In this document: piece after piece, positions 52,826 to 55,129 of the stretch
How positions within the stretch are numbered: the first letter of the stretch is position 1
Layout of the letters: each line of letters begins with the position of its first letter
NCBI RefSeq assembly: GCF_006345805.1
Contig: NC_043004.1
Coordinates: 65,720,001 to 65,784,000, forward strand
Direction: 5' to 3'
Length of the DNA stretch: 64,000 nt
Origin: Octopus sinensis
Taxonomy: Eukaryota
Notes under the pieces: model-generated
Told to the model about the DNA's origin: nothing
Database searches by the model: none
What the model saw: only the letters and a program-made list of their open reading frames with translations
Made by a program: the position numbers and the translations under genes

Positions 52826-53140
52826 CTATATATATATATATATATATATAACTGTATACTTCTGTGTCCATATATAGATATATGCTCAAACGCACACTCG
52901 CATATATAGACATGTACACACAAGCATTTATATATATATAATATATATATATTATATAAAAGGGCTTAGTAAAATAAATTACTTTGCCGCATACTGACTC
53001 ATTAGAAATAGCAGCTAAAAAACTTTTTTAAAGCTATTTCTAATACTTAAAGAAAATATCTCTCATATATAGTGTTTGCTTAATTCAACTCACAAAAGTT
53101 TGGGGGTAAGGACATCGAAAAATCAAATGCTAAGGTTATT

Positions 53141-53193
53141 TGAGAACGTACGTTTCAAGATTAGTCAAAAACAACACTTCTATCATCAGCTCA
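53141..53193 (-). ncRNA. Hammerhead motif, array copy 1
   Basis: ugag-CUGAUGA-uagaaguguuguuuuugacuaaucuu-GAAA-cguacg-UU-cuca. Confidence 0.7.
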
Positions 53194-53684
53194 GAAATTC
53201 CTTGGTTTGGATTTGGAAACACTGAAAATAAGAACATACCCTTCGAAGATCTGCCCGTAACTAACAGTGCCAACAAATTCAAATAAGCAAGCGAAGAATC
53301 TCTGTTTCCCCTTTCCACCAGCGTGGGTAAAAAACATCAAACACTATGCTTATTTCGGTAAAATCCGAAGCATTAATCAGAGGGAGATTAATTATAATTT
53401 CAACAATTGAGGGCAAAATTAATTAATTATTAATCAATTTCACCAAGTGTTCAGTATGCAAAGGGACCATTCAAGGCAATTCAAATTATTACATTATAAT
53501 AAAGGGCTTAGTAAAATAAATTACTTGCCGCACGCATACTGAACTCATTAGAAATAGCAGCTAAAAAACTTTTTTAAAGCTATTTCTAATACTTAAAGAA
53601 AATCTCTCTCATATATAGTGTTGCTTAATTCAACTCACAAAAGTTGGGAGTAAGGACATCGAAAAATCAAATGCTAAGGTTATT

Positions 53685-53737
53685 TGAGAACGTACGTTTC
53701 AAGATTAGTCAAAAACAACACTTCTATCATCAGCTCA
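53685..53737 (-). ncRNA. Hammerhead motif, array copy 2
   Basis: Same motif as copy 1. Confidence 0.7.
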
Positions 53738-54225
53738 GAAATTCCTTGGTTTGGATTTGGAAACACTGAAAATAAGAACATACCCTTTCGAAGATCTGCC
53801 CGTAACTAACAGTGCCAACAAATTCAAATAAGCAAGCGAAGAATCTCTGTTCTCCCCTTTCCATCAGCGTGGGTTAAAAACATCAAACACTATGCTTATT
53901 TCGGTAAAATCCGAAGCATTAATCAGAGGGAGATTAATTATATTTCAACAATTGAGGCAAAATTAATTAATTATTAATCATTTCACCAAGTGTTCAGTAT
54001 GCAAAGGGACCATTCAAGGCAAATTCAAATTATTACATTATATAAAAGGGCTTAGTAAAATAAATTACTTTGCCGCATACTGAACTCATTAGAAATAGCA
54101 GCTAAAAAACTTTTTTAAGCTATTTCTAATACTTAAAGAAAATCTCTCTCATATATAGTGTTTGCTTAATTCAACTCACAAAAGTTGGGGGTAAGGACAT
54201 CGAAAAATCAAATGCTAAGGTTATT

Positions 54226-54278
54226 TGAGAACGTACGTTTCAAGATTAGTCAAAAACAACACTTCTATCATCAGCTCA
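54226..54278 (-). ncRNA. Hammerhead motif, array copy 3
   Basis: Same motif as copy 1. Confidence 0.7.
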
Positions 54279-54724
54279 GAAATTCCTTGGTTTGGATTTG
54301 GAAACACTGAAAATAAGAACATACCCTTTCGAAGATCTGCCCGTAACTAACAGTGCCAACAAATTCAAATAAGCAAGCGAAGAATCTCTGTTCTCTCCTT
54401 TTACTAAGCCCTTTTATATAATGTAATAATTTGAATTTGCCTTGAATGGTCCCTTTGCATACTGAACACTTGGTGAAATTGATTAATAATTAATTAATTT
54501 TGCCCTCAATTGTTGAAATTATAATTAATCTCCCTCTGATTAATGCTTCGGATTTTACCGAAATAAGCATAGTGTTTGATGTTTTTAACCCACGCTGGTG
54601 GAAAGGGGTGAACAGAGATTCTTCGCTTGCTTATTTGAATTTGTTGGCACTGTTAGTTACGGGCAGATCTTCGAAAGGGTATGTTCTTATTTTCAGTGTT
54701 TCCAAATCCAAACCAAGGAATTTC

Positions 54725-54777
54725 TGAGCTGATGATAGAAGTGTTGTTTTTGACTAATCTTGAAACGTACGTTCTCA
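54725..54777 (+). ncRNA. Hammerhead motif, array copy 4 (inverted)
   Basis: tgag-ctgatga-...-gaaa-cgtacg-tt-ctca. Confidence 0.7.
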
Positions 54778-55057
54778 AATAACCTTAGCATTTGATTTTT
54801 CGATGTCCTTACCCCCAAACTTTTGTGAGTTGAATTAAGCAAACACTATATATGAGAGAGATTTTCTTTAAGTATTAGAAATAGCTTTAAAAAAGTTTTT
54901 TAGCTGCTATTCTAATGAGTACAGTATGCGGCAAGTAATTTATTTTACTAAGCCCTTTTATATAATGTAATAATTTGAATTTGCCTTGAATGGTCCCTTT
55001 GCATACTGAACACTTGGTGAAATTGATTAATAATTAATTTTTTGCCCTCAATTGTTG

Positions 55058-55129
<72 letters not shown>

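What the first reader, a model, noticed from the sequence alone, without database searches (positions are those of the whole stretch)
52951..55060. Young multimeric array with four hammerheads on both strands
About 2.7 tandem ~543-bp monomers then ~1.2 inverted monomers, nearly identical (differences are mostly 1-nt indels that may be sequencing error). A minus-strand transcript would be cut at successive GUU sites into ~543-nt monomers. Adjacent palindromic cguacg stems III could pair as a dimeric hammerhead. The inverted arm gives long dsRNA. Caveat: stem II closes with U-U and stem I is only 4 bp, so activity is uncertain.
Basis: partly seen in the sequence, partly recalled or inferred. Interest (0 to 1): 0.85.

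Follow-up and report, generated by a model that had tools for sequence, protein, structure and literature searches.

The report
Penelope-mobilised hammerhead retrozyme insertion
This is one copy of a widespread, non-coding jumping repeat whose 543-base unit carries a predicted self-cutting RNA motif, and whose insertions almost always have two back-to-back arms with two different fixed ends, a pattern that likely records how a Penelope-type enzyme copies one RNA circle from both DNA strands at once.

Summary
Observation confirmed: 2.7 monomers (52948-54401, RNA sense on minus) meet 1.2 inverted monomers (54399-55064) head-to-head between (TA)n runs, with four identical type I hammerheads. It is one insertion of a dispersed non-coding family (4,630 ribozyme-motif hits, 41 in the control): a non-LTR retrozyme with the insertion anatomy of Penelope-like elements (PLEs).

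Arms end at two fixed sites, A (+196 from the cut) and B (+288). Of 75 classifiable two-arm loci, 73 are A/B. Variant bases are shared across both arms (0.41% difference versus 0.96% between loci), and the cut site is seamless. In 14 loci neither arm contains the other, so simple fold-back is excluded there.

Best reading: a self-cleaved, ligated RNA circle is copied by a Hydra-clade PLE enzyme primed on both target strands. Intact Hydra PLEs here show the same anatomy but share no sequence with the monomer. The ribozyme core is conserved and its stems covary across relatives 53-97% alike; the U-U pair is a lineage trait, not decay.

Cleavage, circles and expression are not shown. The scan earlier noted a ribozyme-free analogue in another genome.

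The parts
52929..52958 (.). (TA)n target run at the left end; overlaps end A, so no target-site duplication can be read
52948..54401 (-). Left arm, 1,454 bp (2.7 monomers), RNA sense on minus; outer 3' end at site A (monomer position ~196), inner 5' end at position 370
53141..53193 (-). Type I hammerhead 1; predicted cut between 53145 and 53144
53145..53688 (-). Cut-to-cut monomer, 544 nt
53685..53737 (-). Type I hammerhead 2; predicted cut between 53689 and 53688
53689..54229 (-). Cut-to-cut monomer, 541 nt, 32.7% GC, non-coding (longest stop-free frame 55 aa), circular fold z = -4.1 against 40 shuffles
54226..54278 (-). Type I hammerhead 3; predicted cut between 54230 and 54229
54399..54401 (.). 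Head-to-head junction of the two arms, 3-nt microhomology (TTT)
54399..55064 (+). Right (inverted) arm, 666 bp (1.2 monomers), RNA sense on plus; 5' end at monomer position 170, outer 3' end at site B (~288-291)
54725..54777 (+). Type I hammerhead 4; predicted cut between 54773 and 54774
54970..55064 (+). 'Tail': the ~92-95 nt between sites A and B, present at this end only
   Evidence: tail concept from PMC11167929
55060..55135 (.). (TA)n target run at the right end
13959..14662 (.). Second insertion of the same family: A arm (306 bp, minus) and B arm (404 bp, plus), symmetric junction on an AGATCT palindrome, two hammerheads of the U4C subfamily

Best explanation
This is one insertion of a dispersed, non-coding 543-nt hammerhead repeat (a non-LTR retrozyme), likely pasted into a (TA)n run by a Penelope-like (probably Hydra-clade) enzyme that is predicted to copy one circular monomer RNA from both target strands at once. 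SHOWN: the anatomy (two head-to-head arms, ends A and B, mostly short microhomology at the junction, TA flanks), the family, the A/B rule, shared variants across arms, seamless cut sites, and conservation and covariation of the ribozyme and of a helix around site A. INFERRED steps: (1) a multimer is transcribed and cut by dimeric hammerheads; (2) a monomer is ligated into a circle, in which the lone weak ribozyme is mostly silent; (3) a PLE RT/GIY-YIG protein, probably a dimer, binds the A-B region and nicks both strands of (TA)n; (4) one 3'-OH starts cDNA at A (+196), the other at B (+288), and both run round the circle to give multimers; (5) the two cDNA 3' ends join by microhomology, giving the inverted structure with the tail on one end only. 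Odds: retrozyme mobilised by a PLE about 0.9; two-site priming on one RNA about 0.75; circular template about 0.7.
For: (a) 73 of 75 classifiable head-to-head loci are A/B, 1 B/B and 1 possible A/A; an independent sample on C1 gave 29 of 29. (b) PAc initiates RT at two internal RNA sites that bound the tail, nicks and extends both strands, and is modelled as a dimer (PMC11167929). (c) In 14 loci neither arm contains the other, so both need an RNA template. In L196, A arm 442 + B arm 101 = 543, one circle, each arm stopping at the other's start. (d) 21 of 78 junctions are symmetric within 15 nt versus 5.2 by permutation (max 14 in 5,000), as expected if both enzymes share one template. (e) Substitution distance: same arm 0.395%, opposite arms 0.408%, different loci 0.956%. 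Locus-by-variant cases: 54 fixed (32 across both arms), 17 partial, 138 singletons. A401T is in 17 of 17 covering units of L031 and in only 1 other unit. (f) The cut site is seamless in 186 copies, at most 1 deletion per position, against template jumping on linear monomers. (g) Ribozyme: 12 of 13 core positions invariant over 7 representatives versus 43% of ungapped columns; N7 and H17 vary as allowed; 11 of 39 pairs change on both sides, 0 of 500 shuffles. (h) Hydra-type PLEs with long open frames (RWK/RWR, DKT, CxCx5C; e.g. 960 aa L091) lie in the same genome with the same palindromic stem III, TA targets and one-short/one-long ends.
Against: No cleavage, circle or expression is shown. RNA support is only Logan contigs of runs guessed to be RNA. 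An excess of 5' ends at the cut site (6 vs 1.2 in one sample) did not replicate (0 vs 1.8; 2 vs 1.9 in the top-hit set), and genome-wide counts drop only about 10% across the cut (1,752 to 1,614). No autonomous partner shares sequence with the monomer (9 PLE 3' regions, z -1.4 to 1.9; no PLE body attached to an arm in the loci examined). The monomeric ribozyme fold is unstable (+1.7 kcal/mol) and lacks the G10.1-C11.1 pair called highly conserved in PLE hammerheads. In print, PLE hammerheads cleave poorly, 8 of 9 Xenopus retrozyme dimers did not cleave, and PAc insertion did not need cleavage. The covariation comes mostly from one distant relative (L172), and the shuffle control ignores relatedness. 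Within-locus homogeneity could also come from a homogeneous linear donor or from gene conversion.
Confidence: 0.68

Rival explanations
1. Same PLE-driven, two-site priming, but the template is an uncut linear multimeric transcript of an already homogeneous donor array; the ribozyme matters little and no circle is needed.
For: Seamless cut sites are expected here too. There is no replicated stop at the cut site. PAc used unprocessed RNA in vitro. 17 partial variant cases exist.
Against: Arrays up to about 16 units in one arm carry near-private fixed variants (L031), which needs a single-monomer bottleneck at some point. Copying linear donors can only shorten arrays. The ribozyme core is kept across relatives 53-97% alike. 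L196 sums to exactly one circle.
Confidence: 0.17
2. The inverted arm arises by fold-back (self-priming) of the first cDNA at a local palindrome, followed by endonuclease resolution at the other site, as proposed for Penelope in rotifers.
For: 21 of 78 junctions are symmetric, several on palindromes (AGATCT, GGAATTCC, AAAACTTTT). Palindromic inverted junctions were read as self-priming (PMC3846280), and the tail as endonuclease resolution (PMC8557442). Shared variants across arms fit this too.
Against: In 14 loci neither arm contains the other. It does not by itself explain why the second end is almost always the other site. It may still apply to the symmetric subset.
Confidence: 0.1
3. The monomer is the pseudo-LTR of an autonomous PLE that was not found, and the arrays are truncated leftovers or local DNA-level tandem expansions (satellite birth by unequal crossing-over).
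For: The hammerhead is of PLE type. Li et al. 2026 relate retrozymes to pLTRs and discuss local expansion. Only some PLE families were sampled (150 of 8,826 RT candidates scored).
Against: No shared body or ORF is attached to an arm in the loci read. The 4.8-kb PLE inside L151 is a broken Neptune-type copy set off by TA runs. Monomers join seamlessly, and related families keep a 541-566 nt period. Ends fall at the same two sites at dispersed loci, which local crossing-over would not give.
Confidence: 0.04
4. Assembly or read artefact (for example a palindromic chimeric long read).
For: Copies differ mostly by homopolymer indels. L054 and L055 are mirror images of one locus. Reads over this junction were not inspected.
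Against: More than 70 loci with different junctions share the same two biological ends in TA runs, across subfamilies of different age and in autonomous PLEs. Chimeric reads would give symmetric A/A or B/B ends.
Confidence: 0.01

Closest known systems
Metazoan non-LTR retrozymes (Cervera and de la Pena 2020, PMC7229834; Li et al. 2026, bioRxiv 10.64898/2026.07.22.740005)
   Same: Non-coding, low-GC tandem monomers, each with a type I hammerhead, dispersed at many loci, co-existing with PLEs. A circular intermediate reverse-transcribed into tandem cDNA is their proposed model.
   Different: The monomer (541-566 nt) is longer than the 150-450 bp first described, though within Li's 51-972. The ribozyme has the PLE build (4-bp stem I, 2-bp palindromic stem III, unpaired 10.1-11.1). 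Insertions are two inverted arms with fixed A/B ends; 'inverted' does not occur in PMC7229834. RNA circles are not shown here.
EN+ Penelope-like elements, especially the Hydra clade (Craig et al. 2021, PMC8557442; Arkhipova et al. 2013, PMC3846280)
   Same: Partial tandem plus head-to-head inverted 5'-truncated copy, tail at one end only, hammerhead upstream of the ends, (TA)n target.
   Different: No ORF. The tail is ~92 nt, not 30-40 (Hydra-type PLEs here have about 96-175 nt). No sequence match to any of the 9 PLE 3' regions tested.
PAc (Poseidon of Anolis), two internal RT start sites (Frangieh et al. 2024, PMC11167929)
   Same: Two internal start sites downstream of a hammerhead define a tail; AT-rich target; both strands extended.
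   Different: In vitro PAc showed no strand difference in start site and the pairing of sites per insertion was not reported; here each insertion uses one of each. PAc is autonomous.
Non-autonomous Chlamys PLEs such as MRC1 (PMC8557442)
   Same: Non-coding PLE parasites with multicopy head-to-tail insertions.
   Different: Those resemble their autonomous partner at the 3' end, and Chlamys elements mostly lack hammerheads.
LINE-1 twin priming (recalled, not read)
   Same: Two target-strand primers on one RNA give a head-to-head inversion joined by microhomology.
   Different: In L1 the second primer anneals at variable internal sites; here both sites are fixed and both arms can be multimeric.

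Membership tests
Non-LTR retrozyme | Tandem monomers of a few hundred bp, each with a type I hammerhead | tested here: met
   541/544-nt monomers, four hammerheads; 164 of 186 copies keep the intact core and stems
Non-LTR retrozyme | Non-coding, GC below 50% | tested here: met
   Longest stop-free frame 55 aa; GC 32.7%
Non-LTR retrozyme | Dispersed at many loci (mobile, not one satellite block) | tested here: met
   103 loci with arms read; 4,630 motif hits vs 41 control
Non-LTR retrozyme | Canonical hammerhead build (6-bp helix I, G10.1-C11.1, loop 1-loop 2 contacts); typical but not universal, mussel retrozymes lack the contacts | tested here: not met
   Helix I 4 bp, 10.1-11.1 unpaired in 6 of 7 representatives
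Non-LTR retrozyme | Self-cleavage in vitro | not testable with these tools
   Only conservation and covariation; stop enrichment at the cut site not replicated
Non-LTR retrozyme | Expressed as linear and circular monomer RNA | tested here: inconclusive
   Family pieces in Logan contigs of 4 runs guessed to be RNA; contigs cannot tell circle from tandem
Non-LTR retrozyme | No PBS/PPT/LTR; target-site duplication longer than 4 bp when present | tested here: inconclusive
   No LTR layout seen; PBS/PPT not searched; duplication unreadable inside (TA)n
EN+ Penelope-like element (autonomous) | ORF with RT and GIY-YIG endonuclease | tested here: not met
   No ORF in the monomer; no PLE body attached to arms
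EN+ Penelope-like element (insertion anatomy) | Partial tandem with head-to-head inverted 5'-truncated copy | tested here: met
   78 head-to-head two-arm loci of 103
EN+ Penelope-like element (insertion anatomy) | Tail at one end only | tested here: met
   73 of 75 classifiable loci A/B
EN+ Penelope-like element (insertion anatomy) | Hammerhead with short palindromic stem III upstream of the 3' ends | tested here: met
   same build in Hydra-type PLE loci
Hydra-clade PLE parasite | (TA)n target | tested here: met
   Flanks
Hydra-clade PLE parasite | Sequence shared with the 3' end of an autonomous partner | tested here: not met
   9 PLE 3' regions, local-alignment z -1.4 to 1.9; blastn against 40 + 20 PLE-search loci found no PLE-linked match; sampling of PLE families incomplete

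The most novel reading that the evidence does not exclude
The family is a genomic record of a PLE integration rule not found in my searches: a PLE dimer primes both target strands at two fixed, different RNA sites (obligate asymmetric twin priming). On a ribozyme-made RNA circle the two enzymes chase each other in a double rolling circle. This would explain PLE inverted repeats and one-sided tails, and give direct sequence evidence that animal retrozymes move through circles using a Hydra-clade enzyme that recognises RNA shape rather than shared sequence.
Probability: 0.45. Interest if true: 0.75.

Novelty: new member of a known kind. Interest (0 to 1): 0.55.

Why it matters
The element class is known, but how PLEs make their inverted repeats and one-sided tails, and which enzyme moves animal retrozymes, are stated as open in the papers read. 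This family is short, young, abundant and sits beside intact Hydra-type PLE frames, so it gives countable rules (one A end and one B end; both arms from one template) and a ready substrate for an in vitro test. It also shows a hammerhead lineage that keeps an unpaired 10.1-11.1 position and a U4C branch, which Rfam misses; strict descriptors may undercount such ribozymes.

Tried and rejected
Rfam: no hammerhead at gathering or at E<=10. Pfam names neither the 960-aa Hydra-type frame nor the window's GIY-YIG piece; the clade call rests on motifs from PMC8557442 section 11, not on a tree.

Search for an autonomous partner: 40 loci from a GIY-YIG search and 18 from an RT search. Weak hits in L107/L108 are an unrelated repeat sharing a 12-mer. 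The hit in L160 is an older retrozyme relative ('family R', 565-nt period seen in one locus, L172), not the PLE. The PLE inside L151 is a separate broken Neptune-type copy.

Footprint of cleavage as 5' stops at the cut site: seen once, not replicated. Pattern counts along the monomer were confounded by subfamily variants (1,372 / 1,752 / 1,614 / 947). The 29,840 hits of the site-A 12-mer overstate copy number: 13 of 40 sampled stretches held no family sequence.

RNA: no holder on record as RNA was listed. Laying on 4 'RNA?' contig sets shows presence only. A read-level check of this junction was not obtained.

Rows set aside before counts: L054 (mirror of L055), L070 and L032 (overlap with L056 and L031), L223 (not head-to-head), L151 (two insertions around a PLE), L208/L218/L224 (no arm found), L122 (left out of the stop-rate calculation). 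Three two-arm loci had an unclassifiable end (L036, L067, L225). L062 and L117 look A/B by eye but were counted as single-arm.

Earlier findings: none in this genome or by sequence. Supplements of the cited papers were not read and may hold related families or end statistics.

Full report
OBSERVATION. The array is as described. A left arm (52948-54401, 1,454 bp) and an inverted right arm (54399-55064, 666 bp) lie between (TA)n runs. Three hammerheads are on the minus strand and one on the plus, all identical: 4-bp stem I, CUGAUGA, U-U then AGA/UCU stem II, GAAAC-GUAC-GUU. Cut-to-cut monomers are 544 and 541 nt and differ by 5 substitutions and 13 gap columns. In ribozyme sense the arms are head-to-head, with their 3' ends facing the flanks and a 3-nt overlap in the middle. 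The monomer is non-coding, 32.7% GC, and folds as a circle better than shuffles (z -4.1, 40 shuffles). Rfam does not detect the ribozyme. The host is a 2.72-Gb animal genome (G000); I take it to be a cephalopod from size and repeat make-up, which is a guess and not tested.

FAMILY. The monomer is dispersed: 241 matches in 40 of 1,685 candidate places, and 4,630 hits of the ribozyme 5' motif against 41 for the control. I read three samples: the top-hit loci plus two window copies (39 loci); 40 stretches from the first ~10 Mb of C1 picked by a site-A motif (27 held the family); and 40 stretches from C1 7-146 Mb picked by four motifs (37 held arms). Subfamilies of 545, 555, 558 and 566 nt are 76-97% alike, and an older relative of 565 nt is 53-58% alike. 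A second copy lies in the window at 13959-14662.

THE A/B RULE. Numbering from the cut site, arms end in (TA)n either at about +196 (A) or about +288 (B). Of 103 loci, 78 have two head-to-head arms: 73 A/B, 1 B/B (L126), 1 possible A/A (L043, non-TA flank), and 3 with an unclassifiable end. The third sample alone gave 29 of 29. Most junctions overlap by 1-7 nt. [quoted passage not shown] Frangieh et al. showed that the tail is the stretch between two internal RT start sites and that the enzyme nicks and extends both strands (PMC11167929, parts 1-2 of 4).

BOTH ARMS FROM ONE TEMPLATE. Substitution distance is 0.395% within an arm, 0.408% between opposite arms and 0.956% between loci. Of locus-by-variant cases with at least 3 covering units, 54 are fixed (32 across both arms), 17 partial and 138 singletons; the fixed cases include subfamily markers as well as private ones. 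Near-private examples: A401T in 17 of 17 units of L031, A337G in 7 of 7 of L033, T387C and A442G in 5 of 5 of L045, A430G and C209T in the finding itself. The cut site is seamless in 186 copies. In 14 loci neither arm contains the other, so one cannot be a fold-back copy of the other. L196 has an A arm of 442 and a B arm of 101 nt, together one monomer, each stopping at the other's start; this is a single case. 21 of 78 junctions are symmetric within 15 nt against 5.2 expected, which fits a trailing enzyme catching a stalled leader, but also fold-back for that subset.

IS THE RIBOZYME REAL? Over 7 representatives, 12 of 13 core positions are invariant against 43% of ungapped columns (P 3e-4, sequences not independent). 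N7 is U/C/A, H17 is U/A, and one subfamily has U4C. Stem I changes on both sides in 4 of 4 pairs and stem II in 5 of 6, mostly through the distant relative. 11 of 39 named pairs change on both sides, 0 of 500 shuffles, and slid controls fall to 28-44% paired. A helix enclosing site A also covaries (2 of 11 pairs). Position 10.1-11.1 is unpaired in 6 of 7 representatives, and also in PLE hammerheads here, so U-U is not decay of this copy. Short palindromic stem III and dimer function are the known metazoan and PLE pattern, with low activity in vitro (PMC4209133, abstract and passages; PMC6765202, passages). That U4C is tolerated in a viroid is recalled, not checked. Against activity: the monomer fold is unstable (+1.7 kcal/mol), and an excess of 5' ends at the cut site (6 vs 1.2) vanished in the next sample (0 vs 1.8). 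The clear stop hotspot there is at +36-56 (19 vs 2.9), in a sample partly chosen by a motif at +52-66.

WHO MOVES IT? The genome holds young PLEs with long open frames and Hydra-clade motifs (RWK/RWR, DKT, CxCx5C in several; definitions from PMC8557442 section 11, which also gives (TA)n targets and hammerheads for this clade). Their hammerheads have the same 2-bp stem III with a mostly palindromic 4-nt loop. Where both ends could be read they are one short and one long (L091 204/376, L101 190/365, L156 44/156, L162 38/134, L163 60/216, L164 63/219, L166 53/205, L167 53/213, L169 37/155). None shares sequence with the monomer, so Hydra is an inference from anatomy and target; Neptune-type copies are also present.

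EXPRESSION. No run on record as RNA was listed; 17 runs guessed to be RNA hold 20-36% of the words. Contigs of 4 such runs cover the whole monomer with family variants but cannot show strand, level or circles.

COMPARISON AND NOVELTY. It files as a non-LTR retrozyme (PMC7229834, passages), a class proposed to be non-autonomous PLE derivatives (bioRxiv 10.64898/2026.07.22.740005, parts 1-3 of 5), subject to the untested cleavage and circle. I found no description of this family, of inverted A/B insertions for retrozymes, or of twin priming for PLEs in eight searches of the held library. An octopus repeat annotation does not mention ribozymes (PMC13282606, passages). Subscription papers and supplements were not seen.

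VERDICT. A real feature and a new member of a known kind. Its value lies in the countable rules it gives for PLE integration and retrozyme mobility. Interest 0.55.

Noticed in passing
window +23016, -25206, +35855, -49850, -47856/+48310, -13688: Six further type I hammerhead families in this one window, each with paired stems; -47856 and +48310 belong to two related copies in opposite orientation. Rfam finds none.
   Followed up: partly
window 13560-13940; L171-L195: Relic of an older relative ('family R', 53-58% alike, 565-nt period in L172) with a stem III palindrome ACGCGU, next to the second young copy; 2,143 candidate places in G000.
   Followed up: partly
window 9823-10179 (-): Decayed PLE GIY-YIG fragment with a CxCx5C linker (Hydra-type); 151 related matches among 150 of 11,031 candidates scored.
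   Followed up: partly
L091 (G000:C4:78515500-78525400), L152-L169: Several young Hydra-type PLE families with open frames up to 1,124 aa, tails of about 96-175 nt and one-short/one-long ends; candidate enzymes for an in vitro system.
   Followed up: partly
monomer positions +42-53; L209, L211, L214, L221, L227, L228, L230: Hotspot where both arms stop together, on an A/T near-palindrome next to a predicted C-rich long-range helix; gives small ~400-bp inverted elements. Cause unexplained.
   Followed up: partly
L124, L125, L131, L149, L060, window 13959-14662: A multi-locus subfamily, with multimeric arrays, carries U4C in the hammerhead core.
   Followed up: no
L143-L147, L107, L108: Unrelated short dispersed repeat with terminal inverted ends (TTAACCC...GGGTTAA) that shares a 12-mer with site A; looks like a MITE (label recalled).
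   Followed up: no
L151:3190-7990: Broken Neptune-type PLE (DKG motif, RVT_1 hit) between two retrozyme arms, set off by TA runs.
   Followed up: yes
window 20776-22873; 18542-18895; 55564-56010: ORF pieces resembling a PIF1/Helitron helicase and Tc1/mariner transposases (labels recalled, not tested).
   Followed up: no
window 29742-29813 (+); about 48500-48597: A tRNA-like gene (Rfam) and an assembly gap of Ns.
   Followed up: no
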